Shown: positions 12,994 through 53,305, numbered from the stretch's first letter. The stretch: 64,000 nt of DNA from an uncultured bacterium (GCA_937930175.1 CALGLP010000009.1:549-64548), one strand, 5' to 3'. Numbers and translations: made by a program. Notes: generated from the letters alone by a model not told the origin.

Positions 12994-14250
12994 TTAAAAA
13001 GGTTTTGAAAGCTTCACATTGCGTTTAACAAACTTCTCCATGCAAGATGGCTTAACGCCTGTAAAAAACCAGTCACCCAACACCTTGCCATCAGAAGTAA
13101 TCTGTTCTTCCTTAAAATAAAAAATGTCCTTTAGCGCAACATCATCATTCTCGATCACCGAAGCAACATCGGTCACATGCGTAATACGCCTTGTGCCATC
13201 AACAAAAAGCTCTGTATGCACAATCAAATCCACCGCGCAAACAATTTGACGGCGAATTTCATCCACGCTTAAAGGAATGCCAGTTGACAAAAGCATCGTA
13301 ACCAAACGATTATAGCAATCTTTGGGCGATTCCCCATGCACGATCGCTAAGGCCCCAGAGTGACCGCTGCTAATCGACAAAATCAAATCCAGCGCTTCGT
13401 TGCCGCGCACCTCGCCAATGATAATGCGATCAGGCCGCATGCGTAGAGAATTCACAAACAAGTCCCCAATGCTAATAACCCCCTTGCCCTCAACATTCGC
13501 GGCCTTAGCCTGCAAGCTCACCACATGGGCTTGCTTTAATTTAAGTTCAGCGGTGTCCTCAATAGTCACAATACGTTCCCTCTCAGGAATATGACGAGAC
13601 AAAACATTAAGCGTTGTTGTTTTACCTGTTCCCGTAGCTCCGGAAAAGATAATATTAAGTTTGGCAACAATGGCGGCAATCAAAAAATCAGCCATCTCAC
13701 GATTAAGCATTCCTAATCGCAAGAGATCCTCAACAGTTTCAATATCCGAGGAGAATTTGCGGATCGTGACAACCGGGCCAATGAGCGATACCGGCGGCAA
13801 AATCACATTCACGCGCGAACCATCCGACAGAGAAAAGTCAACATACGGCGATGATTCATCCACGCGTCGCCCAGATGATGATCCAGCCAAAATCTTTTGG
13901 ATCGTAAAGAGCAGCTCCTTGGAGTCTTGAAAACGCACATCACTTAGCTCTATTTTCCCTTTACGCTGAATATAAATCTTATAGGGCCCGTTGATCATGA
14001 TCTCGCTGATTGTCTTGTCCTCCATCAAAGGACGTAAAGGACCTAAATTAATAACCGAACTAACAAACTGACGAAGAAGAGCATTTTTCTCATCTTCCGT
14101 CAAATAGATTTCATTCTCCTGGCAAACAAAATCAATAGCCTTGCGCACATAAATGCGCACCTGATCCTCGCTGATCGAATCTTTAACTTTCAGAAAATCT
14201 GTTTTCGCAATCAAATGCTTTTGAGCTAAACTCTTAACATTTTCGAACAT
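12994..14250 (-). CDS. CpaF/TadA-family type II/IV secretion (Tad pilus-type) ATPase
   Basis: 418 aa with a Walker A (GATGTGKTTTLNVLS), the Asp box, Walker B and His box typical of CpaF/VirB11-like secretion ATPases. Confidence 0.85.
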   Translation of the reverse strand: MFENVKSLAQKHLIAKTDFLKVKDSISEDQVRIYVRKAIDFVCQENEIYLTEDEKNALLRQFVSSVINLGPLRPLMEDKTISEIMINGPYKIYIQRKGKIELSDVRFQDSKELLFTIQKILAGSSSGRRVDESSPYVDFSLSDGSRVNVILPPVSLIGPVVTIRKFSSDIETVEDLLRLGMLNREMADFLIAAIVAKLNIIFSGATGTGKTTTLNVLSRHIPERERIVTIEDTAELKLKQAHVVSLQAKAANVEGKGVISIGDLFVNSLRMRPDRIIIGEVRGNEALDLILSISSGHSGALAIVHGESPKDCYNRLVTMLLSTGIPLSVDEIRRQIVCAVDLIVHTELFVDGTRRITHVTDVASVIENDDVALKDIFYFKEEQITSDGKVLGDWFFTGVKPSCMEKFVKRNVKLSKPF

Positions 14251-29839: not shown

Positions 29840-30576
29840 TTTTTTAGCTTTCGTAAGAATATTTTGACCTTCTCAAGATCTTCGGCAGTGTCCACGCTCA
29901 TTGTTTCCTTGTCGGTTTCAATAACCCTGATCTTGTACCCTGCCTCAAGGACCCGAAGCTGTTCAAGTTTTTCTGTTTCTTCCAGGATGGACTTGGGCAA
30001 TTTATTAAAACTCATCAAGAAACTTTTCTGGTAGGCATAGATCCCCAAATGCTTATAATAAACACGGCTTCCGAAAGAAACTGCATCACGATTAAACGGG
30101 ATGACTGAACGCGAAAAATAAAGCGCGTAACCTTTTCGGTCAACAACAACCTTCACCACATTGGGATTAATTAAATCTTCTTCTTCCTCAATGCGCTTGA
30201 TGATCGTTGCCACCGATGCTTGCTTTTCTTTCCACAAGGTCGTTATCAATCCATCGATCATGCCTGGATCGATCAGGGGTTCATCCCCTTGAATATTAAT
30301 GATATACGCGGCACTCAAATCCTTGACCGCCTCAATAATGCGATCGGATCCTGACGAGCATTCAGGGCTTGTCATCAAAACCTTGGCGCCAAATCCTTCA
30401 CAGGCAAGTTTTACTCGCTCATCATCGGTTGCCACAAAAAGCCCATCGAGATGCTTGGCTTTCGCCGCACGCTCCCAAACATGCTGGATCAATGGCTTAC
30501 CCAAAAGATCCGCTAAAACCTTTGCCTTGAATCGAGTGGATCCGTATCGCGCAGGAATAACGCCAATAGCCTTCAT
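29836..30576 (-). CDS. kdsB: 3-deoxy-manno-octulosonate cytidylyltransferase (CMP-KDO synthetase)
   Basis: 246 aa starting MKAIGVIPARYGSTRFKAK, with an IQGDEP motif. Confidence 0.93.
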   Translation of the reverse strand: MKAIGVIPARYGSTRFKAKVLADLLGKPLIQHVWERAAKAKHLDGLFVATDDERVKLACEGFGAKVLMTSPECSSGSDRIIEAVKDLSAAYIINIQGDEPLIDPGMIDGLITTLWKEKQASVATIIKRIEEEEDLINPNVVKVVVDRKGYALYFSRSVIPFNRDAVSFGSRVYYKHLGIYAYQKSFLMSFNKLPKSILEETEKLEQLRVLEAGYKIRVIETDKETMSVDTAEDLEKVKIFLRKLKK

Positions 30577-31604
30577 GATTCCCGGCCCTCCATAGCTTGC
30601 AAAATATCCTGAGGCGTCACAGTTACAGCACCTGTCTTAGCGACCACCACACCAGCGGCAGAATTAGCCAGCATCGCGGCCTCGCGTTTTGTAGCGCCAG
30701 CCATCAAGCTTAGCGTAAAAACAGAAATCACCGTATCGCCGGCACCAGTCACATCAAATACTTCCCGCGCCTGGGTTGGGATCAAAAAGGGGTCTTGATT
30801 TTTTTCAAATAGATACATCCCGTGCTCGCCTAATGTGATCAGAAGTGATTCAAGACTAAGATAATGAAGAATAGCATCGCCCGCCACACGAACATCTTTC
30901 AAGGTCTTTAATTTATCATTTTTTATTTTGAGCTGACGACCTTTATCGTGGGTGATGATAATATTACGAATTGCGTTTTCCATTTCTTTACGATTAGGCG
31001 TAATACAGGTGGCCTTGGTATAATAATTGAAATGTTCTACCTTGGGATCAACGGTGATGATCTTTTTTTGCTGACGGGCTAGCGCACAAACACGGCGAAC
31101 AAGCTCCTTGGTGATCACACCTTTGCCATAATCAGAAAGAATGATACCATCCGCCTTTTTGATATGGGTCTCAATAAAACGAAGGATTTTGGCCTGCATA
31201 TCGTCGGACACAAGGCTATTTTCTTCCCGGTCCACGCGCACCACTTGTTGATGTTGGGCAATGATACGCGTCTTTAGCGATGTCACCGACTGAGGAGAGG
31301 AAAAAAGCCCTGAACTATCAACCCTGCGCTTATTTAATGCTCGTTTTAGGATTTTTTCTTCACGGTCGCGGCCGACCTTGCCAACTAAGAAGACTTTAGC
31401 GCCTAGGGCACTTAAATTATTGGCAACGTTAGCGGCTCCACCCAGAGTAAAGCGGGACTCACCTTCTTGAAGCACAACCGGCACAGGGGCTTCTGGAGAG
31501 ATACGATCAACCGACCCTTGGATATATTGATCCAAGATCACGTCACCAACAACCAACACTCTTTTCCCGTGAAAACAAGAAATGATCTTTATAAAATTAG
31601 TCAT
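30573..31604 (-). CDS. hldA: D-glycero-beta-D-manno-heptose-7-phosphate kinase (HldE domain I / RfaE1, PfkB family)
   Basis: 343 aa. VLVVGDVILDQYIQGSVDRISPEAPVPVV...GGAANVANNLSALGAKV aligns with the E. coli HldE N-terminal kinase domain. A DVTGAGDT motif is present. Confidence 0.85.
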   Translation of the reverse strand: MTNFIKIISCFHGKRVLVVGDVILDQYIQGSVDRISPEAPVPVVLQEGESRFTLGGAANVANNLSALGAKVFLVGKVGRDREEKILKRALNKRRVDSSGLFSSPQSVTSLKTRIIAQHQQVVRVDREENSLVSDDMQAKILRFIETHIKKADGIILSDYGKGVITKELVRRVCALARQQKKIITVDPKVEHFNYYTKATCITPNRKEMENAIRNIIITHDKGRQLKIKNDKLKTLKDVRVAGDAILHYLSLESLLITLGEHGMYLFEKNQDPFLIPTQAREVFDVTGAGDTVISVFTLSLMAGATKREAAMLANSAAGVVVAKTGAVTVTPQDILQAMEGRES

Positions 31605-31958
31605 AGAAAGGTTAAAAAATAATACTATTATTGATGACAGAAGGAGTTAGGAGCCAACATAGGACCCAACCAAAGAGCCGATTTTAGCATAGTTTTAAAA
31701 TGCCGTCAAATGGTTTACAGGGACGCTTTGCTTCTAGGACATATTCTATTCCCCCTAAACAGATTTAATTTATAAAGAATGTCTTCTAGCAAAAAACAAG
31801 GCATTTTCTATTCGAACATGATTAACTGCATACTTTAGACAGCAGATGGACAATTCGCCAGAATATGCTATCCTTTTGTTATTGGAGAGGGGGTGTTTAT
31901 CACCATCCGCGGAAGCGTTTTTGTAGACTTCTTGCTTTTTATTGAAAGGACAAAATTG

Positions 31959-34900
31959 ATGAAAAAATTTGTTATTATGATCATGACCTGTGCGTTCCTA
32001 ACATCTATTTTTCTGGCTACGGGATATTGCCAGTTTGATGCAAGGAAGAGAGCCAAAGAAGCGCCCTTGAAGAATAATAAAAACGCCGAAGTTGTCAAAG
32101 AAACGTTGGATTCTGATCTTGATCCGGCAGCAAGCTCTTTGCGCGTAAGATATTCGTATCCGGTTCCCCGAGTGAATAGAGTAGCGCTGGAAGATAAAGT
32201 TTATGATGAGATTTCGTTAAATAATGTTCAGAATTTTGCCGAACCGGGACAGCCGCTCTTGCCGCTCGACGGTCATTATATTTTGATCCCGCAAGGAAAG
32301 AAAGTTGTCGATATTTCTGTCAAAACAGATGATGCCAAATCTTTAGGTACGGGATTTATTGTCAGGCCCGAAAGCGAGCCCGTGTTTGTTTCCGATGATC
32401 GGGGAAAACCCCTTCCCATTCCTAACGAAGACATTTATTCATCCAACGAGATGTTTCCCGGAGAGATCGCCAAAAAGGTTAGTTCTTCCTGGTTTCGAGG
32501 ATATCAGATCCTTGCTTTAAACATCGCTCCGGTGCAATTCATTCCCTCTTCGGGAGAAGTTCTTTATTATCGAGACATTACGATTCATGTGACCTTGGCT
32601 CAAGATCGTGATCCGGTTCATCCGCTGTTTAGAGGCAGCAAAACAGATCGCCTTGAGATCAGGCGTCGGGTTGAAAATCCCTCTGTGGCCGATACCTATC
32701 TTGATAAAGTGAGGAACGTGTCCGAAACAGCTTACGATATGGTGATCATTACCGGCGCTGATCTTGTCAATGGATTAGTACCTCTTAAAAACATGCATGA
32801 TAGTACCGGGGTCAGCACCCATATCGTTACCGTTGAGGATATTTACCAAAATTACCCAGGGGTCGATAACCCTGAGAAAATCCGTAATTTTATTATTTCG
32901 GCATACAATGATTGGCAGGTTGATTACGTTCTGCTCGCGGGGGATGCCGGGATCATTCCTGCGCGGCTATTACGGCCAAGCCAGAGCGGAGATGCGACCG
33001 TAGTTTCAGATCAATATTACTCTTGTCTTGATGGTCCCTACAATGCCGATGGTGATCAATACTGGGGAGAAATTCATGATGGAGAAAATGGAGAAGATAT
33101 TGATTTCTTTGCAGAGGTTTACATTGGAAGGGCGACTATAGAAAATTCTCAGGAAGTTCAGAACTTTGTCAATAAAACAATTGCATATGTGAACCTAGAT
33201 CCAAATTCTGATTATTTAAAGAAAGTTTCTTTGATGGGAGAACACATAGGTGAGGATTATTGGGGTGGAGATGCTCTTGATCGTTTAATCGATGGAGCTT
33301 TTTACAACAACAAAATAACGGTAGGGTTGCCTTCTCATGAGCTGGATATAGAAACTCTTTATGATGAGAATTGGCCATATAATCAATGGCCGAAGCAAGA
33401 GGTAATTAATTTAATCAATTCTGGAGTTCACATTATTAATCATCATGGGCACTCTGGCACAGATTTGAACATGAAAATACTATCGAATCCGGATGTCTTA
33501 GGTCTTACGAATGAAAAATTGTGTTTTATTTATTCCGCGGGATGTTCTCCAGGGTATTTTGTTCGTTATAACGAAGATGTTATTGCCGAATATTTTACGA
33601 TCAAAACGGAGAATGCGGCTGTTTTTGGGATTTGGTATACCTGCTCTTCTTCTTCCTATGTCAGTGAACAGCTTCAATCGTATTTCTGGGATTCGGTATT
33701 TTATGATGGATTGATAGTCCCTAGCATGGCTTTACAATCAAGCAAGGAGAAGTATGCGTACGCGTATAATGGAACTGCTGTGCGTCAGAATGTCTTTGGT
33801 CTAACTTTATTTGGAGATCCTGCCGTTCACTTTAATGGATCATTTTTCGATGAATCAGTTGTCAAAATAGCCGATATTTTGCATCACAATGTACTTGAAA
33901 ATGAACTTTATACTTTTCAGGTTCAACTTGATCATAGTGATCCGCAAAAAACATATCTCTATTCGCTATCTTCTGCTCCTGAAGAAATGGAAATTGACTC
34001 CTTGACAGGCGCAATTTCCTGGATACCTCAACGTGCAGATGTCGGAGCCAATCACATTTGCGTAAAGGTCGCTGATGCTGACGATCCTGAAATTTATGAT
34101 CTAGAACAGTATGCTGTTGTTGTTGATTACATCAATCATCCACCTGTGGCTAATGATGATTCGGCAACGCTCTATGAGAATTTGTATACGTATATCTATG
34201 TTCTAGATAACGATAGTGATCCGGATTTGGGTTATGGAGACTCTCTAACCATCGATAGCATTGTTAATGCTCCTGCTGGAGGAACGGCCGTGATTTCAAA
34301 TGGAACAAGAATTAGGTACGCGGCTAATAATGGTTTTGTTGGCTTGGATTCCTTTGCTTATGCGGTTCGTGATGCTTCAGGGGAAATGGATACAGCCGAA
34401 GTGTCTGTTTTTGTCAAAGACAGAGACGTATTGTTGCATCAAGGATGGAATCTCTTTTCATTGAATATGAACAATTGGTATCCTTCTAAAAAGTTGTCCT
34501 ATTTCTTGCAGTCTTTGATTGATCAGGGAATTGTTGAAATTGTCAAGGATGATACATCTCATGTGATTTGGCCTGAGTATGGAATCGATACGATCGGGCT
34601 TATGAAGGCAACTGAAGGTTATCAAATCAAGGTCACACAAGACGCTGCGATCCCTGTTTACGGAAGTCCTGTAAATTCTTCTTCATTAAATATCTCGCTG
34701 CAGCAAGGGTGGAATATTGTCGGGTATCCGATGTTAGAAGAGCATCCTGGGCTTGCCTTTGTAAAACCTCTTATTGAACAAGAAGTATTGATTGAGGTTA
34801 TTGATGAAAACAATCAGAAGATTTATCACAATGGATCAGCATGGGTCAATCAAATTGGCAATTTTAAACCAGGAGAAGGGTATCATATAAAGCTCTCTGC

Positions 34901-36209
34901 GAGCGCAGAGATGAAAATTCCGGAGGATTCATTTTTTCTATCCGGAAATATTAAAGATTCTAATGGAAATGATATCGAGGCCATTGCTCCGATAACGATC
35001 GCACTGATCGGCGAAGGGCAATTTGAGGGCATCAATTTTACAGCCATCATAGAAGAAGGCGATTATGACTATTACATCCCCAATGTCATTTTCGGGTGGA
35101 CAGGAACGATCAATGTGACAAGTGATGCTTATAATTTTGAAATGATGAGCCCCGGGGTGACTGTTCCTCTGACCGAGAAAAGAAACAATCTAGATTTTGA
35201 AGCGACGTTAAAAACATACATCATTTCAGGGACGGTTACCTGTAACGGCCAAGGTGTTGAGGGGGTTGAGTTTAAAGATAGCCATGGTGTTTGGCTCGGA
35301 TCAACGGGGCCTACGGGAGAGTATTTCTTTAATCTTCCGTATGAATGGACAGATATCATCATTCCCACCAAGGAACATTATACGTTTTTACCTGAAAGTC
35401 AGGCCTATAGCTGGTTGAGAAGTGATCAAGCGCAAGATTTTATTGCAACGAAAATCTCAGCTTCCATTTCCGGGGAGATTCTTTATGAAGATGGCAGTCC
35501 TCTGGGAGGCGTTGAAATCAAGAAAGGAGATGAGGTTCTTGCGGTGACGGGATCAAATGGGCTATATTCTTTTAGTAAACCTGCTGGCTGGTCAGGAACG
35601 GTTCATCCTGAGAAGGCGAACTATATCTTTGATCCGGAGAGTAGAGAGTATACTGATCTTGAGCAAAATCAAGAGTCTCAAGATTATGAGGCTAGCACAG
35701 AAGAAACTTTCACCCAGATCGTAGAACTTCATGAAGGGTGGAATAATTTTGCGCCTATTGTCATCGCGCAAAGCATGCATGTCGAGGATTTATTAGCTCC
35801 ATTGGTTCTCGAAGGAAAACTGGTCACTTGTTATGATCGGACAGGGTCTTTTTACAATCCAAATACCGGGCTCAATCAAATTAGCCAGCCGTTGAGTGTC
35901 GGTTATGGGGTTACGTTGCAATTAAATGCTCCTACAACGCTGTTTGTTCCGGGGGAATCTTTTACTTCACAAGTCACTGTCGACCTCTTTAGTGGAAATA
36001 ATTATATTGGATTTCCAGTTAATAAAAATGCGATGGAAACACTACAGGGATTAATTGACGCTGGGGTCTTAGTCTATGTGATGGATCGTACAACTGGCGG
36101 TACTATTTCTTATTATGGAGGCACTTGGATAGATTCTATAGGTCAGTTTGTCAAAGGGCGGGCGTACTGGATTGTGGTTAATCAGAATTCACAGATTGAC
36201 GTGCAATAG
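31959..36209 (+). CDS. Secreted multidomain peptidase: C25 (gingipain-like, clan CD) cysteine peptidase core + cadherin/Ig-like domain + 2 CarboxypepD_reg-like domains + 3 unclassified repeats
   Basis: Start at the ATG at 31959 (MKKFVIMIMTCAFLTSIFLATGYC, signal peptide) with an AAAGGA Shine-Dalgarno. A caspase-like His/Cys dyad (INHHGHSG ... 33 aa ... SAGCSPG) has the same spacing as gingipain His211/Cys244. A YVLLAGDAGIIPAR motif is present. Further on there is a Big_9/cadherin-like segment (VLDNDSDPDLGYGDSLTI), two CarboxypepD_reg-like modules and three LxxGWN repeats. It is the only plus-strand gene in the window. Confidence 0.8.
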   Translation: MKKFVIMIMTCAFLTSIFLATGYCQFDARKRAKEAPLKNNKNAEVVKETLDSDLDPAASSLRVRYSYPVPRVNRVALEDKVYDEISLNNVQNFAEPGQPLLPLDGHYILIPQGKKVVDISVKTDDAKSLGTGFIVRPESEPVFVSDDRGKPLPIPNEDIYSSNEMFPGEIAKKVSSSWFRGYQILALNIAPVQFIPSSGEVLYYRDITIHVTLAQDRDPVHPLFRGSKTDRLEIRRRVENPSVADTYLDKVRNVSETAYDMVIITGADLVNGLVPLKNMHDSTGVSTHIVTVEDIYQNYPGVDNPEKIRNFIISAYNDWQVDYVLLAGDAGIIPARLLRPSQSGDATVVSDQYYSCLDGPYNADGDQYWGEIHDGENGEDIDFFAEVYIGRATIENSQEVQNFVNKTIAYVNLDPNSDYLKKVSLMGEHIGEDYWGGDALDRLIDGAFYNNKITVGLPSHELDIETLYDENWPYNQWPKQEVINLINSGVHIINHHGHSGTDLNMKILSNPDVLGLTNEKLCFIYSAGCSPGYFVRYNEDVIAEYFTIKTENAAVFGIWYTCSSSSYVSEQLQSYFWDSVFYDGLIVPSMALQSSKEKYAYAYNGTAVRQNVFGLTLFGDPAVHFNGSFFDESVVKIADILHHNVLENELYTFQVQLDHSDPQKTYLYSLSSAPEEMEIDSLTGAISWIPQRADVGANHICVKVADADDPEIYDLEQYAVVVDYINHPPVANDDSATLYENLYTYIYVLDNDSDPDLGYGDSLTIDSIVNAPAGGTAVISNGTRIRYAANNGFVGLDSFAYAVRDASGEMDTAEVSVFVKDRDVLLHQGWNLFSLNMNNWYPSKKLSYFLQSLIDQGIVEIVKDDTSHVIWPEYGIDTIGLMKATEGYQIKVTQDAAIPVYGSPVNSSSLNISLQQGWNIVGYPMLEEHPGLAFVKPLIEQEVLIEVIDENNQKIYHNGSAWVNQIGNFKPGEGYHIKLSASAEMKIPEDSFFLSGNIKDSNGNDIEAIAPITIALIGEGQFEGINFTAIIEEGDYDYYIPNVIFGWTGTINVTSDAYNFEMMSPGVTVPLTEKRNNLDFEATLKTYIISGTVTCNGQGVEGVEFKDSHGVWLGSTGPTGEYFFNLPYEWTDIIIPTKEHYTFLPESQAYSWLRSDQAQDFIATKISASISGEILYEDGSPLGGVEIKKGDEVLAVTGSNGLYSFSKPAGWSGTVHPEKANYIFDPESREYTDLEQNQESQDYEASTEETFTQIVELHEGWNNFAPIVIAQSMHVEDLLAPLVLEGKLVTCYDRTGSFYNPNTGLNQISQPLSVGYGVTLQLNAPTTLFVPGESFTSQVTVDLFSGNNYIGFPVNKNAMETLQGLIDAGVLVYVMDRTTGGTISYYGGTWIDSIGQFVKGRAYWIVVNQNSQIDVQ

Positions 36210-36495
36210 GTTCAAGGGCAGTATTCTCAATATCGATATATCAAAAGAGGGTTCTGTCTTTGATTTTATAAAAGATAAAGACTGACACCCCCAAAGGCTT
36301 CGCTAGGTTCCATGACGCGCTTTGATGCAATTTTCCTTTCTACCTACCCCCGACCTCTTTCCCAAAAGCCATGGCTTGCTTACGAACATCCTGCGGCATG
36401 TCTTCTCCTAAAATATCAACAGATTCAATATCTTGTTATTTCTGCTAAGCGGAATTACGCTCTTTTTAAGTATGAAGAGCCTCGCGTGCTCAAAA

Positions 36496-36735
36496 TTATT
36501 TATAATTAAATAAATCCGCCAAGGTGTAGGTTTTTGTGGTTGCCGCATTAAGGGCATTTAAAATTTTAGCCTTCATGTGCGGGGTAATTCTGCGGCCTTT
36601 AAGAGCATGGGCAACCTGCTTGTGGGTAAGCTGCGTAGTTGAGACGGCCACAAGGTCATGGGTCTTGAGATGATGTTCGGTCATGATCTTCCCTATTGGC
36701 TGGAGACCAAAATTTTTCTCAAGGTCGGTGCGCAT
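36496..36735 (-). CDS. Hypothetical small protein (possible HTH-like)
   Basis: 79 aa (MRTDLEKNFGLQPIGKIMTEHH...LTHKQVAHALKGRRITPHMKAKILNAL...). An alternative internal start at 36684 is possible. No family recognised. Tightly packed after the 75-aa ORF. Confidence 0.45.
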   Translation of the reverse strand: MRTDLEKNFGLQPIGKIMTEHHLKTHDLVAVSTTQLTHKQVAHALKGRRITPHMKAKILNALNAATTKTYTLADLFNYK

Positions 36736-36752: not shown

Positions 36753-36980
36753 TTACAATTTGATAATATCTTTCGAATATTGATTGCCATCATTGATCGT
36801 TCTTAAAAACGCAGGAAAAGCTCTCGCGGGAATGACCATCTCCGTGACCTTTTCATGCGTCACATCTTCAAAAATCATAGTTACGCCTTTACGGCCTTCC
36901 TCATCCATAAAATGTTTAATGTAAATACTAAAATGCGAACCTAAATAATCCCACTCGATCAATTGATTAATTTTTGCCAT
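36753..36980 (-). CDS. Hypothetical small protein
   Basis: 75 aa (MAKINQLIEWDYLGSHFSIYIKHF...). No family recognised. Its stop is 8 nt from the pilZ-like gene and 17 nt from the next small ORF. Confidence 0.45.
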   Translation of the reverse strand: MAKINQLIEWDYLGSHFSIYIKHFMDEEGRKGVTMIFEDVTHEKVTEMVIPARAFPAFLRTINDGNQYSKDIIKL

Positions 36981-36987
36981 ACAACTC

Positions 36988-37356
36988 CTAGCGATAGTTA
37001 TCGAATCGTTGAGCCGAATTAAGATAATTCAAGAGCTTCTTAACATCAAGCTCAGGAAGATCAATAAATTTGACCCCTGCCTCGTAACGCTTATTTCTGA
37101 CGATCTCATTGATCCAGCGGACCACGCCTTTAGCCACAAAGCAAAAATCAAGATGCTCAAGACTGATGGAGACATCTACAATCGTCCCGATCTCAAGCTT
37201 TTCCGTCACAATAAAACAAATGCCAGACTGGCTGATATCCTTAGCTTCCGTCTTTTTCTTTTTGCCCGAAGACGCGGCCTCGTAGACAACTTCAGAACAG
37301 TCCGGGACACGGACAAACTCACGCTGATTAAAATGTTCAGTGGTATCGGTCATCAT
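36988..37356 (-). CDS. PilZ-domain protein (putative c-di-GMP receptor)
   Basis: Start at MMTDTTEH (37354-37356) with a strong GGAGGA Shine-Dalgarno 4 nt upstream. PilZ signature motifs REFVR (RxxxR) and DISQSGICF (D/NxSxxG) are present. Confidence 0.7.
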   Translation of the reverse strand: MMTDTTEHFNQREFVRVPDCSEVVYEAASSGKKKKTEAKDISQSGICFIVTEKLEIGTIVDVSISLEHLDFCFVAKGVVRWINEIVRNKRYEAGVKFIDLPELDVKKLLNYLNSAQRFDNYR

Positions 37357-40421: not shown

Positions 40422-41511
40422 GCGCCATCACTTTTTTGTAAACATTGAGGGTTTGAACAATCATACGTTCAAACGAAAAATTCCTGCAAATAAAATTGTA
40501 AGCCGCTTCTCCAAGTTCAGAACGCTCTTGTTCATTTTCCATAAGATAAATGATCGCTTGACTTAAGCGATCAACATTTTCTTTGGGAACAAGGATCCCT
40601 GTCTTACCGTCTTGAATCAGCGTTGGTAATCCTCCGACGTTGGAAGCAATGACAGCCAAGCCTTGAGCCTGGGCCTCCATTACGGACAACCCCAATCCCT
40701 CTTGGCGCGACGGCATCACAAAAATATCAAAGAAAGGCAACATATTCTGCTCGCCCTGACTCGTGGGAACAAAAAAAACGTTAGACTCAAGTGACAACTG
40801 CTTTGCCAGCGACACGAGCGCCTCCTTCCATTTTCCCTCACCCACGATCACAAGATTCACATCAGGATATTGGCTCACAACTTTTTTCACAGCCTTAATC
40901 AAAATATCTTGGCCTTTAACTTCAGAAAGCCGTGCGACAATACCCACGATCAGCCCAGGCTTCAGCCCCAATTCTTTGCGCTTGTCGTTTTTTCTGATTT
41001 CACTCCAGCCATAACGCTGACTCTCAAGTCCATGGGGAACAAGAAAAACATTTTCTTGCGTGCAGCCAAAATCTTTTTTCAAATGCTCTTCCACCTGTGC
41101 GCTAATGGCGATCACCGCCTTGCCCCAACAAGGAAAAAGGGCACGCACAATCTTTGGCGTAAAAAATCCATGGCAAGTGGTCACATAAGGAACTTTTGTA
41201 AAAAATGATACACACGCGGCCAAAACTTGCGTCACGCGCGTTTGCGCATGGATCACCTCAATATGATTTTGTTTCACCATGTCCATCACATAAGGGACAT
41301 TGCGATAAATTTTCAAGCTTAATTCTGATTTTGTTTTGATATCCAAACTGATATGTTTGGCGCCGATCGCGCTCAAATCGCCCACGCGATCTCCCCCGCT
41401 CGTGGCTATATAAACATGATGGCCTTTTTGCACCAAACCCTTCGCAATACCCAAAACATAACTGGTGATCCCGCCAGTATTAAAATGCGTTGCCAAAATC
41501 AAAATATTCAT
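40399..41511 (-). CDS. Glycosyltransferase family 4 (GT-B, retaining)
   Basis: 370 aa. A C-terminal EGLGLSVMEAQAQGLAVIASNVGG (E-x7-E region) is typical of GT4. Confidence 0.85.
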   Translation of the reverse strand: MNILILATHFNTGGITSYVLGIAKGLVQKGHHVYIATSGGDRVGDLSAIGAKHISLDIKTKSELSLKIYRNVPYVMDMVKQNHIEVIHAQTRVTQVLAACVSFFTKVPYVTTCHGFFTPKIVRALFPCWGKAVIAISAQVEEHLKKDFGCTQENVFLVPHGLESQRYGWSEIRKNDKRKELGLKPGLIVGIVARLSEVKGQDILIKAVKKVVSQYPDVNLVIVGEGKWKEALVSLAKQLSLESNVFFVPTSQGEQNMLPFFDIFVMPSRQEGLGLSVMEAQAQGLAVIASNVGGLPTLIQDGKTGILVPKENVDRLSQAIIYLMENEQERSELGEAAYNFICRNFSFERMIVQTLNVYKKVMAHEKHSCC

Positions 41512-43613
41512 TGGTCCCCTTTCGCCGCAAGACTCTCAATCTCCGCAACAACTTGTTCGGGTGTAATATTTTTCATGCAGATATGTGTCTTGATCGAGCA
41601 TTGGCCCTGATAACACGGCGCACAACTAGGCTTCAAATAAACAACCTTGCATCGGCCTGAAGGCGGAAGATGACGGAAAGGATCTGTGGGCCCAAAAAGC
41701 GCCACAAACGGTGTTTTCATGGCTGCAGCAACATGCATAGGCGCTGAGTCTGGCGTAACAAAAACAGCAGCTTTTTTTATCAGTGCAGCAAGCTGTAGCA
41801 TATTGGTCTTACCGATTAAATCAATCGGCTTTGATTTAGCCAGCATGATAATCGTCCGCGCCAATTCTTTATTCTTTTCAATGCCAGTAAGAAAAACCCT
41901 GATACTTTTCTGCGCGAGCAAATCACAAAGCTTGGCAATGTGCTCTGGAGGCCAATTTTTTGTAAGCCAGCGCTCCGAAGCCGCAATATTGATACCAACA
42001 AGACGCATACCCGAGGCGACCCAAAAACTATCCAAAAGTTGCTGAACCATGCGATGATCTTCTTTGGACGGCCACATCTCGAGCTCGGGCGCGCTATCCA
42101 GCGAAACATCAAGTTCATCCAGAATGCGAAACTGATGTTCCACCGCCGGCAGAGGCCCTTGATCATCTTTGATCCCACAAGAAAGAAGAAATCCCCATTT
42201 TTTATTATGATACCCATAGCGCTCAAGACAAAAGCTTAAGAACCCCAACAAATGACTTTTGCGATTATTTTGAAAGTCAATTACCTTGTCAAAATGGTAC
42301 TGACGTAACATTTTTCCTAACTTCCAAAGTTTCCACCAGCGTTTATGTTTTTGCTTTCGATCATAGATAATCAAATCATCAAGATAAGGGCAACCTTGTA
42401 AAATTTCACGCGCCTCTCTTCCCACAAGACAAAAGATCTTAGCCAGAGGATATTTAGCACGCAAGGCTTTCAAAGACGGCATGATCAACAAAACATCGCC
42501 GACGGCGCTCAACTTAATCACTAGGATGTTCACATGTTCGCAAAGCTCCTGATACACCTTCATCGTCTGGCTTGCCATATGCTCCAACGTATATTGAGAA
42601 AGGATCTTGGCTTTTGCCTTTTCGACCATTTGCCGAGCTAGCGCCTTGTCCTGTAAAATCTTAACGACTGCCTGCGCCATTTCTTCAGGTTCTTTAGGAG
42701 ACACAAGCAACCCCGTCTCACCTTCATCGATCAGTTCCACAACGCCACCAACACGCGTTGCCACAACAGGAACACCTGCCGCTTGCGCTTCTAAGATCAC
42801 GCGGCCAAAAGATTCTTGCGTGACTGTTGAAAGCACCAAAACGTCCACCTGAGAAAGAAGCTGAGGAATATCTTTTCGATTCCCAAGGAACTCAACATGC
42901 TCAGTCAATCCAAGATACTTTGTCAAAGCCAAAAGCCCTTCCTTGTATGATTCTTTTTCAGCCGGAGCATCTCCAATGATCCAAATCTTAACAAACGGCA
43001 TTGTGCGAACAACTCGCGCCATGGCCTTTAAAAAATACTCATGTCCCTTCAAAGGCGTAATGCGACCAACAATCGCAATGGTGGGTCGCGACTTCGCCTG
43101 GGCATCTTCACGGGGAATATCAAATTTTCTTAGATCAACGCTACGGGGAATACAGCGGATGTTTTCCGGCAAGACACCAAAATCTTGGATCATGTGATGG
43201 CCGATCACTTGACTCGGCACAATGACAAGCTTGGACCAACCCATCACAGAGCTAAAAGGGTGCTTAGAATAATACCCATGGCATGTTGTGATAAACGGCG
43301 TTCGTGTTTTGCGGCAAGCAAAATAGGCAATCCAAGCGGGAACCCGAGAACGGGCATGCACAAGATCAACTTTTTCTTTGACCAAAATTTGTTCAAGCTT
43401 ACGCATCGCCCAAAGCATGGTCACAAGATTTTTTTCTTTTACGTTAAGCTGATAATGCTTGCCCCCTGCACCTTCCAAATCCGCAACTAAATCGCCGCCG
43501 CTTGAGACCACAATCGCCTGATGCCCATGCTCGACAAGATAACGGGCAAAATCAACGGTGCCGGTCTCAACGCCTCCAACACGCAAGGCCGGAAGAATTT
43601 GTAATATTTTCAT
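41508..43613 (-). CDS. Bifunctional GT4-GT9 glycosyltransferase fusion
   Basis: 701 aa. The N-terminal ~350 aa are GT4 (ESFGRVILEAQAAGVPVVATRVGG). The C-terminal ~350 aa are GT9 (ILVIKLSAVGDVLLIMPSL ... PDSAPMHVAAA). Confidence 0.8.
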   Translation of the reverse strand: MKILQILPALRVGGVETGTVDFARYLVEHGHQAIVVSSGGDLVADLEGAGGKHYQLNVKEKNLVTMLWAMRKLEQILVKEKVDLVHARSRVPAWIAYFACRKTRTPFITTCHGYYSKHPFSSVMGWSKLVIVPSQVIGHHMIQDFGVLPENIRCIPRSVDLRKFDIPREDAQAKSRPTIAIVGRITPLKGHEYFLKAMARVVRTMPFVKIWIIGDAPAEKESYKEGLLALTKYLGLTEHVEFLGNRKDIPQLLSQVDVLVLSTVTQESFGRVILEAQAAGVPVVATRVGGVVELIDEGETGLLVSPKEPEEMAQAVVKILQDKALARQMVEKAKAKILSQYTLEHMASQTMKVYQELCEHVNILVIKLSAVGDVLLIMPSLKALRAKYPLAKIFCLVGREAREILQGCPYLDDLIIYDRKQKHKRWWKLWKLGKMLRQYHFDKVIDFQNNRKSHLLGFLSFCLERYGYHNKKWGFLLSCGIKDDQGPLPAVEHQFRILDELDVSLDSAPELEMWPSKEDHRMVQQLLDSFWVASGMRLVGINIAASERWLTKNWPPEHIAKLCDLLAQKSIRVFLTGIEKNKELARTIIMLAKSKPIDLIGKTNMLQLAALIKKAAVFVTPDSAPMHVAAAMKTPFVALFGPTDPFRHLPPSGRCKVVYLKPSCAPCYQGQCSIKTHICMKNITPEQVVAEIESLAAKGDQ

Positions 43614-45583
43614 ATGATCCCTCGTGCCGCATCTAATAGGCAGTCTTGTTGATTCACAGATTTTGTCACTAATCGTTCTTTAACAATGCGTTCAATAAGG
43701 CTTCCAAGATTTTGAGGTTTGACAAGAAAAACATGACCATCATCCTCCAGGCGATCAACAAAGCGATCATGCTTAGTAACCTGCCCGACCAGACGCGACG
43801 TAGGCTTAAACACAATGATCGTCTTTCCAGAGCTCACAGCTTCCGAAACCATCGAAATGCTATCCGAGGACACAATCACGATATCCGAAAGCCCCAAGAT
43901 GCCACCAACAGCATCAGGCAAATTATGTTCTTTAGGGAAAACAGCCAGTGGGCATTGTGGAAAACTGCTTAAACTTTCTTTGATCACGGTTTCAACCTCA
44001 AGCGAAGTGCGCCTGGAGGTTGTCAGCAAAAGCTGCCCATGAAGGGCAATAATCACCCCTTTGAGTTGATCCATCATCTCTTGAGCAAAAGCTGGAGAAA
44101 TCATAAAGCGCTTAGAGTCTCCTCCCCAGAAAATACCAATAGTGATAGGCGGCCGATATTGAAGCCTGGAAAATTTCTGCACAAGGCTCTTGGCCTGCTC
44201 CTGAACATAAGCGGGTGTAATCACGCTAGGAGTGATCTTGGTATACAAAACTTTTTTACTTTTAGGAACAAAGAAACCTTTATCATGTTCGGGTAAAACC
44301 ACAAGGTCAAAGCGCTCCACATTCATCATTCCAGGCTTTTGAATCGCAATACTCTTAGCGCGATAATCTTGAGAAAGAAAATAATTGACTCCTGCTGTCG
44401 AAGATCCACACGAGATCACAAAATCCCCTTTCACGCTCATAACTTCTAAAAAAGACTTTCGTTTTAAAAACCACTTGAGATAACGAAGACGGCCCTGCGA
44501 AACCCTGCGATGACTAACAAAACTTATCGCAGAAAAGGCTTTCTCGCGCATACGATTTTTAAACTCAATATCAATCACCTCCAAATGGGCCTTAATACTT
44601 CGCTCCCCTAAAGCCTGCACAACGCTTTGCGCCATCGCCAAGGATTGATGAAGATGCCCCATTTTTTTATCATTTAAGATCACAATCGTGGATTCTTTTG
44701 AGTATTTCCAAATCTTATAAAACCACATATACTCTGAGGGATATTGCCGAATGTACTGCTCCATTGTACGCACAACCGCATCAAGGCTATGGTTAATATT
44801 GGCATCCAGATCACCCTCTTTGTTAAACTCAAGTAATGGGCTAATGATCAAACGATGTTGCGCCCCTAGTTCACGTGTTAAAACACAAAAACACACCGCC
44901 ACATCCAATTTGATTCCCATCTTGATCGCGCCCGTCGACATCGATGCATCACGGCCAAAGAATTTTACCAAGCTTCCCATCTTCCCGCCTTGATCCACAA
45001 CCATGCCAACCATCTCGTTATTGCGTAACGTTTGCACAAAAGCGCGCATCCCAGTTCCAGGATTTAAAAGCCCTGCCCCGGCTTGCTGCCGATAAGAATT
45101 AAGAAGATCATCAAGCTTAGAATAGCGATTTTGAGGATTAACAAGGACCTTATAAGGATGATTGAAAAGGCGTGGAATAAAATTACACAACTCCCAGCTA
45201 CCAAAATGCATCGCAAGAAAAATAACGCCCTTGCCTCTGGCAAGCGCCTGATCAACATATTCACGGCCTTCCACCTTGATCATTTTGTGAGGATCAATCA
45301 CCGGCAGACGTAAAAGCTCGATCACGTTTTGCCCATAGTTTTCAAAAGCCTTACGCAGAATCTTTTTGATTTCACCGGTTTTCTTTTCACGCGCAAAGGC
45401 AATCTTCAAATTCGCGTAAGCAAGCGAACGATGCCGATGATCAAAAGCATAGCTCAACAGTCCAATCATGCGTCCAATAAAAAGCGCAACAGATATGGGT
45501 AAAAGACAAACAACAAAAGCAAAAAACTTAACGAGATAAAGCAATATGTATTCGTTCTTCAAATTCTTTTTCTCCCTTAACAA
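43610..45583 (-). CDS. LpxL/HtrB-family lipid A late acyltransferase fused to an ELM1/DUF1022-like (GT-B-like) domain
   Basis: 657 aa. The N-terminal ~290 aa have a TM anchor and an HFGSWE (Hx4E) motif typical of LpxL/LpxM. The C-terminal ~360 aa resemble the Mito_fiss_Elm1/DUF1022 family. The start may be downstream of 45583. Confidence 0.7.
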   Translation of the reverse strand: MLREKKNLKNEYILLYLVKFFAFVVCLLPISVALFIGRMIGLLSYAFDHRHRSLAYANLKIAFAREKKTGEIKKILRKAFENYGQNVIELLRLPVIDPHKMIKVEGREYVDQALARGKGVIFLAMHFGSWELCNFIPRLFNHPYKVLVNPQNRYSKLDDLLNSYRQQAGAGLLNPGTGMRAFVQTLRNNEMVGMVVDQGGKMGSLVKFFGRDASMSTGAIKMGIKLDVAVCFCVLTRELGAQHRLIISPLLEFNKEGDLDANINHSLDAVVRTMEQYIRQYPSEYMWFYKIWKYSKESTIVILNDKKMGHLHQSLAMAQSVVQALGERSIKAHLEVIDIEFKNRMREKAFSAISFVSHRRVSQGRLRYLKWFLKRKSFLEVMSVKGDFVISCGSSTAGVNYFLSQDYRAKSIAIQKPGMMNVERFDLVVLPEHDKGFFVPKSKKVLYTKITPSVITPAYVQEQAKSLVQKFSRLQYRPPITIGIFWGGDSKRFMISPAFAQEMMDQLKGVIIALHGQLLLTTSRRTSLEVETVIKESLSSFPQCPLAVFPKEHNLPDAVGGILGLSDIVIVSSDSISMVSEAVSSGKTIIVFKPTSRLVGQVTKHDRFVDRLEDDGHVFLVKPQNLGSLIERIVKERLVTKSVNQQDCLLDAARGII

Positions 45584-52513: not shown

Positions 52514-53305
52514 TTACTGTATCCCATACAAATGAAATAACCAGTAAAAAATTTCCTTGGAAAAGAATAGGGCGATGAGCGATCCCATGACAAGAAAAGG
52601 GCCGTAAGGAATAAGGCTTTCCTTGGTGCGGATTTTGACAATGATCCCAACAACAGCGCCAAAGAAAGGCGCGATAAAAAAAGCTAAAAGAGCCAGCTGC
52701 CAACCTAAAAAAGCACCAACCATGGCCATAAATTTAACATCTCCCCCGCCCATGGACTCTTTCTTAAAAAGAAAATCGCCAACAAGTCCCATCAGATAAA
52801 TTGATCCGCCACCGATTAAAATACCCAAGAAACTTCTCACCCCGCCAAGCAGATGCTGATCGGTGTGATGGAGCTGTGGAATCAAAAGACTAAAAAGGAA
52901 TCCAACCACCAATCCGCCCAAGGTAATCTCATCAGGAATAATCCTATGCTCAATATCCACGAAAGTAGCAACAATAAATCCAGAAAGCATCACCAAATAG
53001 GGCCACAGGATCGCCTCAAGCCCAAAATAACGATAAAATCCAAAAAAAGAAACGGCTGTCAAAAGCTCCACCAAAACATAGCGTATAGAAATCTTAGCCT
53101 GGCAAGATCGGCATTTGCCCTTCAAGAGAAAAAAACTGACCAAAGGAATATTATCATACCAGGGAATCATCTTGTTACAGTTCACGCAATGCGAGCGCGG
53201 CATAACGACGGACTCTTCCTTGGGCATGCGCACAATGCACACGTTCAAGAAACTTCCGATCATGCTTCCAAAGATAAAAATAAGAATACCGATCATGATT
53301 TCCAT
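52514..53305 (-). CDS. pilD: Type IV prepilin leader peptidase (A24 family)
   Basis: 263 aa with an N-terminal Zn-binding CxxC..CxxC (CVNCNKMIPW...CRSCQAKI), polytopic TM helices and the catalytic Asp motifs typical of PilD/GspO. Confidence 0.88.
   Translation of the reverse strand: MEIMIGILIFIFGSMIGSFLNVCIVRMPKEESVVMPRSHCVNCNKMIPWYDNIPLVSFFLLKGKCRSCQAKISIRYVLVELLTAVSFFGFYRYFGLEAILWPYLVMLSGFIVATFVDIEHRIIPDEITLGGLVVGFLFSLLIPQLHHTDQHLLGGVRSFLGILIGGGSIYLMGLVGDFLFKKESMGGGDVKFMAMVGAFLGWQLALLAFFIAPFFGAVVGIIVKIRTKESLIPYGPFLVMGSLIALFFSKEIFYWLFHLYGIQ

What the first reader, a model, noticed from the sequence alone, without database searches (positions are those of the whole stretch)
31605..36209. Lone plus-strand gene: ~1,416-aa secreted gingipain-like (C25, clan CD) cysteine peptidase inserted between two LPS-core operons
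Of about 61 genes in the window, this is the only one on the plus strand. It is preceded by the largest intergenic region (31605..31958, ~350 bp, divergent from hldA). The product has a signal peptide and a C25-type catalytic region whose His (INHHGHSG, ~nt 33441) and Cys (SAGCSPG, ~nt 33533) are 33 residues apart, the same spacing as gingipain His211/Cys244. A YVLLAGDAGIIP motif is also C25-like. After the protease core come a cadherin/Big_9-like segment, two CarboxypepD_reg-like modules and three unclassified repeats. There is no T9SS C-terminal domain, LPXTG or PEP-CTERM signal, so export and anchoring are unexplained. C25 peptidases are mainly known from Bacteroidota, where they depend on T9SS. 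The gene looks AT-richer than its neighbours and sits exactly at the junction of the kds/hldA operon and the heptosyltransferase operon, which is consistent with horizontal acquisition into a cell-surface locus. It is a candidate surface or secreted virulence or nutrient-acquisition protease.
Basis: partly seen in the sequence, partly recalled or inferred. Interest (0 to 1): 0.75.

Follow-up and report, generated by a model that had tools for sequence, protein, structure and literature searches.

The report
Gingipain-family protease inserted in LPS operon
An uncultured Omnitrophota bacterium carries a large secreted gingipain-type cysteine protease gene, whose closest catalytic relatives are archaeal, dropped backwards into a variable slot of its lipopolysaccharide-core gene cluster; it is a real but fairly ordinary new member of a known enzyme family.

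Summary
Window 31959-36209 (+) encodes a 1416-aa protein. It is the only plus-strand gene among about 59 and follows the largest intergenic gap (354 bp). It is a true family C25 (clan CD) peptidase: Pfam Peptidase_C25 E=5e-57, Propeptide_C25 E=1e-17, His498/Cys529 aligned to RgpB His211/Cys244, and a confident model that matches Kgp and RgpB best. There is no T9SS sorting domain, LPXTG or PEP-CTERM. Corrections: the dyad spacing is 31, not 33. The tail is Ig-like, Big_9, two 'GWN' units, three weak CarboxypepD_reg-like units, then two more GWN units. Three small genes lie between the protease and the heptosyltransferases. The AT bias is modest. In every Omnitrophota relative with a readable junction the LPS cluster is collinear and lacks this gene. 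The same slot is empty or carries unrelated cargo (serpins, a transglutaminase-like protein, regulators), even in the closest relative (82% identity). The catalytic half nests in a Thermoplasmatota-labelled archaeal clade at about 40% identity. Non-Bacteroidota C25 proteins are common in databases, so this is a new member of a known kind. By-product: the GWN pair is a very large unannotated module family, mostly found in T9SS cargo.

The parts
31605..31958 (.). Divergent intergenic region between the heptose-7-phosphate kinase gene (minus strand) and the protease gene (plus strand). It contains a likely RBS (AAAGGA) 8-9 nt before ATG 31959.
   Evidence: It is the largest gap in the window at 354 bp. 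The sequence was read directly. Promoter-like sites lie at 31836-31874 (+) and 31709-31681 (-), but the number of sites is not above shuffled controls. There is no Rfam match.
31959..36209 (+). Protease gene: 1416 codons plus the stop codon.
   Evidence: The identical product (called from GTG 31893) is found on contigs from several assemblies.
31959..32027 (+). Sec-type signal peptide, about aa 1-23 (MKK, then a hydrophobic core, then LATG/YC). It does not fit a lipobox.
   Evidence: Assigned by inspection. It is the only hydrophobic window in the protein. The model shows a helix at aa 2-20 followed by a disordered linker at aa 21-43. No signal-peptide predictor was available.
32130..32615 (+). 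Gingipain-type propeptide (aa 58-219), presumably a latency domain.
   Evidence: Pfam Propeptide_C25 E=1.3e-17, 64 bits against a cutoff of 22. The profile hits the Kgp and RgpB prodomains at E=4e-13 and 1e-8. Foldseek gives TM 0.75-0.77 to the RgpB prodomain.
32739..33827 (+). Peptidase_C25 catalytic domain (aa 261-623).
   Evidence: Pfam E=5.1e-57 over model positions 1-372 of 374. The profile hits RgpB 1cvr at E=3e-26. The AF2 model has pLDDT 88.7. Foldseek hits Kgp 6i9a at E=1e-16 with TM 0.63.
33450..33452 (+). Codon for His498, the predicted catalytic histidine.
   Evidence: Invariant in 68 homologues. It aligns with RgpB His211, GH against GHG. It lies two residues after strand 492-496 in the model.
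33543..33545 (+). Codon for Cys529, the predicted catalytic cysteine.
   Evidence: Invariant in 68 homologues. It aligns with RgpB Cys244. It lies two residues after strand 522-527 in the model.
33885..34085 (+). Probable Ig-like domain (aa 643-709), in the position of the Ig-like domain that follows the gingipain catalytic domain.
   Evidence: Only a sub-threshold Pfam He_PIG hit: E=8.7e-4, 20.1 bits against a cutoff of 24.
34116..34418 (+). Big_9 / cadherin-like domain (aa 720-820).
   Evidence: Pfam Big_9 E=6e-19, with Cadherin_4 and Cadherin_5 also above cutoff.
34422..34925 (+). First pair of 'GWN' units (aa 822-989), an unannotated module.
   Evidence: An HMM built only from other proteins' segments matches at E=5.6e-47. 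No Pfam or NCBIfam model covers it.
34935..35720 (+). Three tandem units of about 85 aa (aa 993-1254), distantly CarboxypepD_reg-like.
   Evidence: An external HMM matches at E=3.3e-64. The Pfam CarboxypepD_reg hit is sub-threshold (E=0.005, 17.5 bits against 32.3). Homologous repeats in other proteins carry partial PF13620 and PF13715 hits.
35712..36200 (+). Second pair of GWN units (aa 1252-1414), ending two residues before the C-terminus.
36496..36735 (-). orf79, a small conserved gene bordering the slot. It is context and not part of the insertion.
   Evidence: 65% identical homologue at the same position in the closest relative L023. No family match.
36753..36980 (-). orf75, a small conserved gene (context).
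   Evidence: 77-89% identical homologues in L006, L007, L023, L025 and L038. No family match.
36988..37353 (-). PilZ-domain gene (context), a conserved member of the LPS cluster in close relatives.
   Evidence: Pfam PilZ E=7e-12. Present in L005-L008, L013 and L023-L025.
30573..31604 (-). D-glycero-beta-D-manno-heptose-7-phosphate kinase gene (HldE domain I type), the other border of the slot.
   Evidence: NCBIfam TIGR02198 scores 369.5 bits against a cutoff of 345. Pfam PfkB.

Best explanation
The gene encodes a Sec-exported zymogen of a gingipain-family (MEROPS C25, clan CD) cysteine endopeptidase. An N-terminal prodomain keeps the caspase-like catalytic domain latent until the prodomain is removed. 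His498 and Cys529 form the catalytic dyad. About 790 C-terminal residues form a string of small beta-rich modules: an Ig-like domain, a Big_9/cadherin-like domain, two pairs of an unannotated 'GWN' module and three CarboxypepD_reg-like units. These modules most likely bind substrates or surfaces, which is the role the adhesin domains play in RgpA and Kgp. The enzyme probably works outside the cytoplasmic membrane of an Omnitrophota bacterium, degrading external proteins for nutrients or attacking the surfaces of other cells. The gene is not part of LPS synthesis. It is lineage-specific cargo inserted, in reverse orientation, into a hypervariable slot between orf79 and the heptose kinase gene within an otherwise conserved LPS-core cluster. 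Its catalytic half derives from a clade whose identifiable members are Thermoplasmatota archaea. Shown here: family membership, conservation of the dyad, the fold, absence of the known sorting signals, absence of the gene from relatives, and the phylogenetic placement. Inferred: removal of the signal peptide, activation by loss of the propeptide, passage across the outer membrane (possibly by a type II-like system), the binding role of the tail, and the substrate.
For: Pfam finds Peptidase_C25 at E=5e-57, Propeptide_C25 at E=1e-17 and Big_9 at E=6e-19. H498, C529 and D329 are invariant in 68 homologues. The profile aligns H498 and C529 with RgpB His211 and Cys244 at E=3e-26. The AF2 model has pLDDT 88.7 and pTM 0.88. 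Its best structural matches are the Kgp and RgpB catalytic domains and their prodomains. The only hydrophobic segment is the N-terminal signal peptide, and there is no LPXTG, PEP-CTERM or C-terminal TM. No Por_Secre_tail or TIGR04183 match appears even at E<=1. The tail modules recur in many secreted proteins with other catalytic heads. In synteny, 10 GTDB Omnitrophota loci and further metagenome loci lack the gene, while the slot is empty or carries unrelated cargo. In the NJ tree, 99 of 100 bootstraps place the query in a clade with only Thermoplasmata or Thermoplasmatota labels. Its sister P0062 lies on a contig whose GlnRS-like gene is 82% identical to those of Thermoplasmatales MAGs. Omnitrophota encode type II/IV-like secretion loci according to the literature. 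The window itself has a T2SSE-family ATPase and a prepilin peptidase.
Against: There is no experimental evidence of activity or secretion. The S1 specificity residue cannot be assigned from the alignment. The outer-membrane export route is unknown, and I could not search the whole genome for T9SS or T2SS genes. The compositional signal for foreign origin is weak, and no mobile-element marks flank the gene. The nearest homologue is only about 42% identical and only over the N-terminal 40% of the protein, so the donor and the date of acquisition are unknown. Taxon labels in the tree are sparse: 15 of 120 sequences.
Confidence: 0.8

Rival explanations
1. It is a PorU-like sortase or transpeptidase rather than a degradative protease. 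On this reading the C25 enzyme cleaves a C-terminal signal from surface proteins and attaches them to LPS, which would account for its position in an LPS-core locus.
For: PorU belongs to family C25. The NCBIfam PorU models give the only NCBIfam hits to the catalytic region. PorU 6za2 appears among the structural and profile matches. The gene sits between LPS-core genes.
Against: The PorU model scores are 78 and 49 bits against cutoffs of 420 and 450. The match to RgpB is about 20 orders of magnitude stronger than the match to PorU (3e-26 against 4e-6). A gingipain-type prodomain is present. The gene is absent from the same locus in all relatives, and the slot carries unrelated cargo, so there is no conserved link to LPS synthesis. 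No T9SS genes occur in the window.
Confidence: 0.05
2. It is an ancestral native gene of this lineage that was lost from all sampled relatives, rather than an insertion.
For: Codon usage is not an outlier and GC is only about 2 SD below the mean for neighbouring genes. No transposase, tRNA or strong flanking repeats are present. Other Omnitrophota also encode C25 proteins.
Against: All 10 GTDB Omnitrophota loci and the metagenome loci with a readable junction lack it. The closest relative (82% identity on the kinase) has five unrelated genes in the same slot, running in the same direction as the operon. It is the only gene in 64 kb on the opposite strand. The catalytic domain groups with Thermoplasmatota-labelled sequences and not with the Omnitrophota-labelled C25 proteins, in 99 of 100 bootstraps.
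Confidence: 0.08
3. The protein stays in the periplasm or cell envelope and processes the cell's own envelope proteins, or it is a catalytically inactive adhesin.
For: No known outer-membrane export or anchoring signal is present. More than half of the protein is non-catalytic repeat modules.
Against: The dyad and the other family-invariant residues are intact. The zymogen prodomain is typical of secreted gingipains. The tail modules are those of extracellular proteins, many of which are T9SS cargo.
Confidence: 0.07

Closest known systems
Gingipains RgpB and Kgp of Porphyromonas gingivalis (MEROPS C25; PDB 1cvr, 4ief, 4rbm, 6i9a)
   Same: The overall layout is shared: signal peptide, inhibitory prodomain, caspase-like catalytic domain, Ig-like domain, then further non-catalytic domains. 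The His/Cys dyad aligns and the YVLL-GD motif is shared. These are the best structural matches for both the prodomain and the catalytic domain.
   Different: Sequence identity is only about 19-20%. The dyad spacing is 31 rather than 33 residues. There is no T9SS C-terminal domain and no haemagglutinin/adhesin domain, and the tail is built from different modules. The host is an environmental PVC-group bacterium rather than a Bacteroidota pathogen. Specificity is unknown.
Archaeal propeptide-C25-PKD proteins of about 811 aa (for example P0028, labelled Thermoplasmata; P0054, labelled Thermoplasmatota; P0062)
   Same: These are the closest sequence relatives of the propeptide and catalytic half, at 37-42% identity. 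The query nests in this clade in 99 of 100 bootstraps.
   Different: Their tails are PKD, CARDB, beta-helix or dockerin domains, not Big_9, GWN and CarboxypepD_reg-like modules. They come from archaea. None has been characterised.
PorU, the T9SS C-terminal signal peptidase/sortase (PDB 6za2; NCBIfam NF033707)
   Same: It has a family C25 catalytic fold and gives weak profile and structural matches.
   Different: The scores are far below the family cutoff, the domain organisation differs, and there is no T9SS context.
Dockerin-bearing gingipain-like C25 peptidase of Ca. Stygibacter (Cloacimonadota), described by Williams et al. 2021 (PMC8542988)
   Same: It is a non-Bacteroidota, signal-peptide-bearing C25 peptidase in an uncultured anaerobe, and it was interpreted as an extracellular protein-degrading enzyme.
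   Different: That protein is proposed to dock onto a cohesin scaffold through a dockerin. The query has no dockerin.

Membership tests
Peptidase family C25 (Pfam PF01364, MEROPS C25, clan CD) | Sequence match to the family model above the curated threshold, over the full length of the model | tested here: met
   194.2 bits against a cutoff of 23, E=5.1e-57, model positions 1-372 of 374.
Peptidase family C25 (Pfam PF01364, MEROPS C25, clan CD) | Catalytic His and Cys at the positions of RgpB His211 and Cys244 | tested here: met
   H498 and C529 are invariant in 68 homologues. They align with GH(211)G and AC(244) of 1cvr in the profile alignment.
Peptidase family C25 (Pfam PF01364, MEROPS C25, clan CD) | Caspase-like alpha/beta fold, with the dyad residues at the C-terminal ends of adjacent strands | tested here: met
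   The model has pLDDT 88.7. Foldseek hits Kgp and RgpB at E about 1e-16 and TM 0.63, followed by other clan CD enzymes such as separase and Craspase. H498 and C529 each lie two residues after strands 492-496 and 522-527.
Peptidase family C25 (Pfam PF01364, MEROPS C25, clan CD) | Cysteine endopeptidase activity | not testable with these tools
   This needs recombinant enzyme and active-site mutants.
Gingipains in the strict sense (RgpA, RgpB, Kgp) | N-terminal inhibitory prodomain (PF08126) | tested here: met
   64 bits against a cutoff of 22. Structural match to the RgpB and Kgp prodomains at TM 0.66-0.77.
Gingipains in the strict sense (RgpA, RgpB, Kgp) | T9SS C-terminal sorting domain (PF18962 or TIGR04183) | tested here: not met
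   No hit even at E<=1 in Pfam or NCBIfam. The protein ends with a GWN unit.
Gingipains in the strict sense (RgpA, RgpB, Kgp) | Arg-X or Lys-X specificity set by an Asp in the S1 pocket (RgpB Asp163, Kgp Asp516) | tested here: inconclusive
   The profile alignment is gapped across this region, so no confident equivalent residue can be named.
PorU-type T9SS sortase (NCBIfam NF033707, NF052324) | Score at or above the curated equivalog cutoff | tested here: not met
   78.3 bits against 420, and 48.7 bits against 450.
Big_9 bacterial Ig domain (PF17963) | Match above the gathering threshold | tested here: met
   69.2 bits against 23.6, aa 726-817.
CarboxypepD_reg-like domain (PF13620, PF13715) | Match above the gathering threshold | tested here: not met
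   17.5 bits against 32.3, covering only model positions 1-47 of 82. Homologous repeats in other proteins get partial hits. The label therefore describes a distant resemblance only.
LPXTG sortase substrates and PEP-CTERM proteins | C-terminal motif followed by a hydrophobic helix and a basic tail | tested here: not met
   The only match is an internal NPNTG at aa 1300 with no following TM. There is no PEP motif and no hydrophobic window outside aa 1-24.

The most novel reading that the evidence does not exclude
An Omnitrophota bacterium, from a phylum with a documented archaeal predator and widely suspected predatory or epibiotic habits, captured an archaeal C25 protease. In archaea that protease may act on archaeal surface proteins. 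The bacterium fused it to bacterial surface-binding modules and now uses it as a weapon against archaeal S-layers or sheaths. On this reading the orf79|hldA slot in the LPS-core cluster is a dedicated site where such surface 'arsenal' genes (a protease here, serpins and a transglutaminase-like protease in relatives) are swapped and expressed alongside the cell envelope genes.
Probability: 0.1. Interest if true: 0.7.

Novelty: new member of a known kind. Interest (0 to 1): 0.35.

Why it matters
All biochemical knowledge of family C25 comes from Porphyromonas gingipains and PorU, which depend on T9SS. This gene is a clear and intact example of how the family exists outside that setting: the catalytic core and latency domain are the same, the tail is different, there is no T9SS signal, and the closest relatives are archaeal. 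If expressed, it could show what specificity and export route non-Bacteroidota C25 enzymes use. It could also show whether Omnitrophota use them for feeding on or attacking other microbes. Two by-products may be of wider use. The first is a hypervariable cargo slot inside a conserved LPS-core cluster. The second is a very large 'GWN-pair' module family (about 21,000 cluster representatives) with no annotation and no solved structure, which typically sits about 140 residues upstream of the T9SS sorting domain in cargo proteins.

Tried and rejected
BLASTP self-comparison found no internal repeats, so profiles built from other proteins were needed. A single-sequence search of PDB sequences found only the prodomains, so a family profile was needed to reach the catalytic domains. 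The global alignments of the tail with full-length hits (A2) and with mixed fragments (A3) were unusable, so I used a fragment alignment of the GWN pair alone (A4). The afdb50 fold library was not available. Cluster look-ups returned no taxon names. Genomic context of P0004 and P0002 gave only hints of taxonomy. Taxonomy for P0062 came from a housekeeping gene on its contig. Promoter-like sites were not more frequent than in shuffled sequence, and the scan found no terminator after the gene. The hairpin plus U-run just after the stop codon lies in a region whose folding is not significant, z=-1.1. Rfam found nothing in the window. No significant direct or inverted repeats mark the insertion. 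NCBIfam and PHROGs gave nothing for orf79 or orf75. I first thought orf79 might have arrived together with the protease. I rejected this because the closest relative has orf79 but no protease. I also considered that the GWN pair might replace the T9SS sorting domain. I rejected this as the main reading because in most family members it co-occurs with a genuine sorting domain further downstream.

Full report
OBSERVATION. The window holds an ORF at 31893-36209 on the plus strand. The ATG at 31959 is preceded by AAAGGA. It gives a 1416-aa product starting MKKFVIMIMTCAFLTSIFLATGYC, which looks like a typical Sec signal peptide. Public gene calls start the gene at GTG 31893, giving 1438 aa (P0001). 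Every other plus-strand ORF of 100 aa or more lies inside a longer minus-strand ORF. Independent gene calls on contigs of the same organism put all other genes on the opposite strand. The 354-bp gap upstream is the largest in the window. The identical protein, with both junctions, occurs on contigs from several assemblies, so the arrangement is not a chimera.

WHAT THE PROTEIN IS. Pfam gives Peptidase_C25 (aa 261-623, E=5e-57, full model length), Propeptide_C25 (aa 58-219, E=1e-17) and Big_9/cadherin-like (aa 720-820, E=6e-19). It also gives a sub-threshold He_PIG Ig-like hit at aa 643-709. In an alignment with 67 homologues, H498, C529, D329 and a few other residues are invariant. A profile of that alignment hits gingipain R (1cvr) at E=3e-26. 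It aligns H498 with His211 (GH against GHG), C529 with Cys244, and YVLLAGD with YVLLVGD. The propeptide hits the Kgp and RgpB prodomains. An AlphaFold2 model of residues 1-640 is confident (pLDDT 88.7, pTM 0.88). Its best matches among solved structures are the Kgp and RgpB catalytic domains (E about 1e-16, TM 0.63 over about 400 columns) and their prodomains (TM about 0.75). PorU, separase and Craspase, all clan CD enzymes, follow at a distance. H498 and C529 each sit two residues after a beta strand, as expected for clan CD. NCBIfam's PorU models score 78 and 49 bits against cutoffs of 420 and 450, so the protein is not a PorU orthologue.

THE TAIL. BLAST self-comparison saw nothing. HMMs built only from other proteins' segments define the modules: a pair of 'GWN' units at aa 822-989 (E=6e-47), three units of about 85 aa at aa 993-1254 (E=3e-64), and a second GWN pair at aa 1252-1414 (E=7e-22). 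The middle units resemble CarboxypepD_reg only below threshold, at 17.5 bits against 32.3. There is no T9SS sorting domain even at E<=1. There is no LPXTG with an anchor, no PEP-CTERM, and no hydrophobic segment other than the signal peptide.

CONTEXT AND ORGANISM. Upstream on the minus strand lie kdsC, kdsD, kdsA, kdsB and a heptose-7-phosphate kinase (TIGR02198, above cutoff). Downstream lie orf79, orf75, a PilZ gene, three GT9 heptosyltransferases, GT4 genes, a lipid A acyltransferase fusion, LpxK and WaaA. The rest of the window is housekeeping: IF2, NusA, ProS, RuvB, TopA and DprA. It also has a T2SSE-family ATPase and a prepilin peptidase, and no T9SS genes. Scanning GTDB genomes with the kinase identifies the organism as an Omnitrophota bacterium. 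Its nearest species representatives are 70-74% identical on the kinase and include Ca. Aceula.

SYNTENY. In all 10 Omnitrophota loci from GTDB, the cluster GT4, GT9, GT9, GT9, (PilZ), kinase, kdsB, kdsA, kdsD, kdsC is collinear on one strand, and no C25 gene lies between. The junction is empty in L005 (150 bp) and in L009, L011 and L012. Elsewhere it carries unrelated cargo running in the same direction as the operon: two serpins, a response regulator and a membrane protein in L006; a secreted transglutaminase-core protein in L013; a cupin and small proteins in L007; a PNPOx-like gene in L008. A metagenome scan found a closer relative, L023, with 82% identity on the kinase, 89% on orf75 and 65% on orf79. 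It has the same order up to orf79. It then has 5 kb holding an FMN reductase, a GT87-like membrane protein, a Cys-rich protein, a triple-receiver response regulator and a GMP-synthase-like PP-loop protein, and again no C25 gene. The slot between orf79 and the kinase is therefore hypervariable. The protease is specific to this species-level lineage, and it is the only cargo in reverse orientation. orf79 and orf75 are resident genes and were not acquired with it.

ORIGIN. Apart from itself, the best database hit is 42% identical, and only over the N-terminal 40% of the protein. The tail modules find their best matches in other, unrelated proteins, so the protein is a mosaic. In an NJ tree of catalytic domains, the smallest clade containing the query and any labelled sequence carried only Thermoplasmata or Thermoplasmatota labels in 99 of 100 bootstraps. 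The three Omnitrophota-labelled C25 proteins fell outside that clade. The sister P0062 (83 of 100 bootstraps) lies on a contig whose GlnRS-like gene is 82% identical to those of megabase-scale Thermoplasmatales MAGs. P0002's contig carries an archaeal-type D-aminoacyl-tRNA deacylase. Composition gives only weak support for a foreign origin: GC is 0.417 against 0.446 +/- 0.016, GC3 is 0.376 against 0.440 +/- 0.029, and codon-usage distance is unremarkable. No tRNA, transposase or convincing flanking repeats are present. The only candidate is a 21-nt inverted repeat, 76% complementary, in AT-rich DNA. The acquisition is therefore real but not demonstrably recent.

MECHANISM. The most likely course is as follows. 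The Sec system exports the protein and the signal peptide is removed. The protein folds as a latent zymogen held by the prodomain, and is activated when the prodomain is lost. His498 and Cys529 then carry out proteolysis, while the modular tail binds a substrate or a surface. The route across the outer membrane is unknown. A type II-like system is plausible, because such loci are widespread in Omnitrophota (10.1101/2023.11.21.568195 and 10.64898/2026.06.07.730766), but I could not search the genome. One consequence of the insertion is that the once-continuous cluster is split. The kinase-kds genes then need their own promoter, and a promoter-like site lies at 31709-31681 on the minus strand. 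Such sites are not enriched over shuffled sequence, however. This point is inference.

COMPARISON AND NOVELTY. The protein passes the tests for family C25. It fails those for gingipains in the strict sense (no sorting domain, no adhesin domains) and for PorU. C25 proteins outside Bacteroidota are numerous in sequence databases, and one has been discussed in Cloacimonadota (PMC8542988). No paper in the searchable library links Omnitrophota with C25 enzymes. This is a new and divergent member of a known kind. Its points of interest are the archaeal affinity of the catalytic half, the missing export signal, and the variable slot. I score interest at 0.35.

Noticed in passing
L005-L014 and L023-L038, upstream of the kinase gene (for example L006 5430-9653, L013 8653-9825, L023 3009-7765); window 31605-36495: The junction between PilZ/orf75/orf79 and the heptose kinase gene is a hypervariable cargo slot across Omnitrophota. 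It is empty in four loci. Elsewhere it holds two tandem secreted serpins with a response regulator, a secreted transglutaminase-core protein, a cupin, a PNPOx-like gene, or an FMN reductase, GT87-like protein, response regulator and PP-loop protein set. Three of the filled slots carry secreted proteolysis-related genes (the C25 protease, the serpins, the transglutaminase-like protein). The numbers are too small for a statistical test.
   Followed up: partly
window 34422-34925 and 35712-36200 (aa 822-989 and 1252-1414): The 'GWN pair' module (two units of about 80 aa, with conserved GWN and PGEGY motifs) is a very large family, with 20,963 cluster representatives. It has no Pfam or NCBIfam model and no solved structural relative. 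It is either C-terminal or lies about 140 residues before a T9SS sorting domain.
   Followed up: yes
L011 5272-6934: An AbiEi/AbiEii toxin-antitoxin pair is inserted between two heptosyltransferase genes of the same LPS cluster in another Omnitrophota MAG. This is a second insertion point in the cluster.
   Followed up: partly
window 1-64000: All of the roughly 58 other genes lie on the minus strand over 64 kb. Plus-strand GC skew is negative throughout and turns positive only across the protease gene, so the skew tracks the coding strand.
   Followed up: no
window 31893-31958: Public gene calls start the protease at GTG 31893, giving 1438 aa. That start would bury the signal peptide behind 22 extra residues. 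ATG 31959, which has an RBS, is the better start.
   Followed up: yes
window 36753-36980 (orf75) and 36496-36735 (orf79): Two small genes have no family assignment but are well conserved in position among close relatives (orf75 at 77-89% identity, orf79 at 65%). orf75 has unusually low GC, 0.355.
   Followed up: partly
window 41508-43613 and 43610-45583: Two fused LPS genes: a 701-aa protein that combines GT4 and GT9 domains, and a 650-aa protein that combines a lipid A acyltransferase domain with an Elm1-like domain (precomputed Pfam).
   Followed up: no
window 12994-14250 and 52514-53305: A T2SSE-family (GspE/PilB-type) ATPase and a prepilin peptidase sit singly among housekeeping genes. This shows that the organism has type II / type IV pilus-type machinery.
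   Followed up: no
window 31588-31608 and 36252-36272: A 21-nt inverted repeat, 76% complementary, brackets the protease gene and its upstream region almost exactly. It is AT-rich and probably a chance match.
   Followed up: partly
window 36211-36275: A long hairpin followed by UUUUAU lies immediately after the stop codon and could act as a terminator between the convergent genes. The region's folding energy is not significant, z=-1.1.
   Followed up: partly
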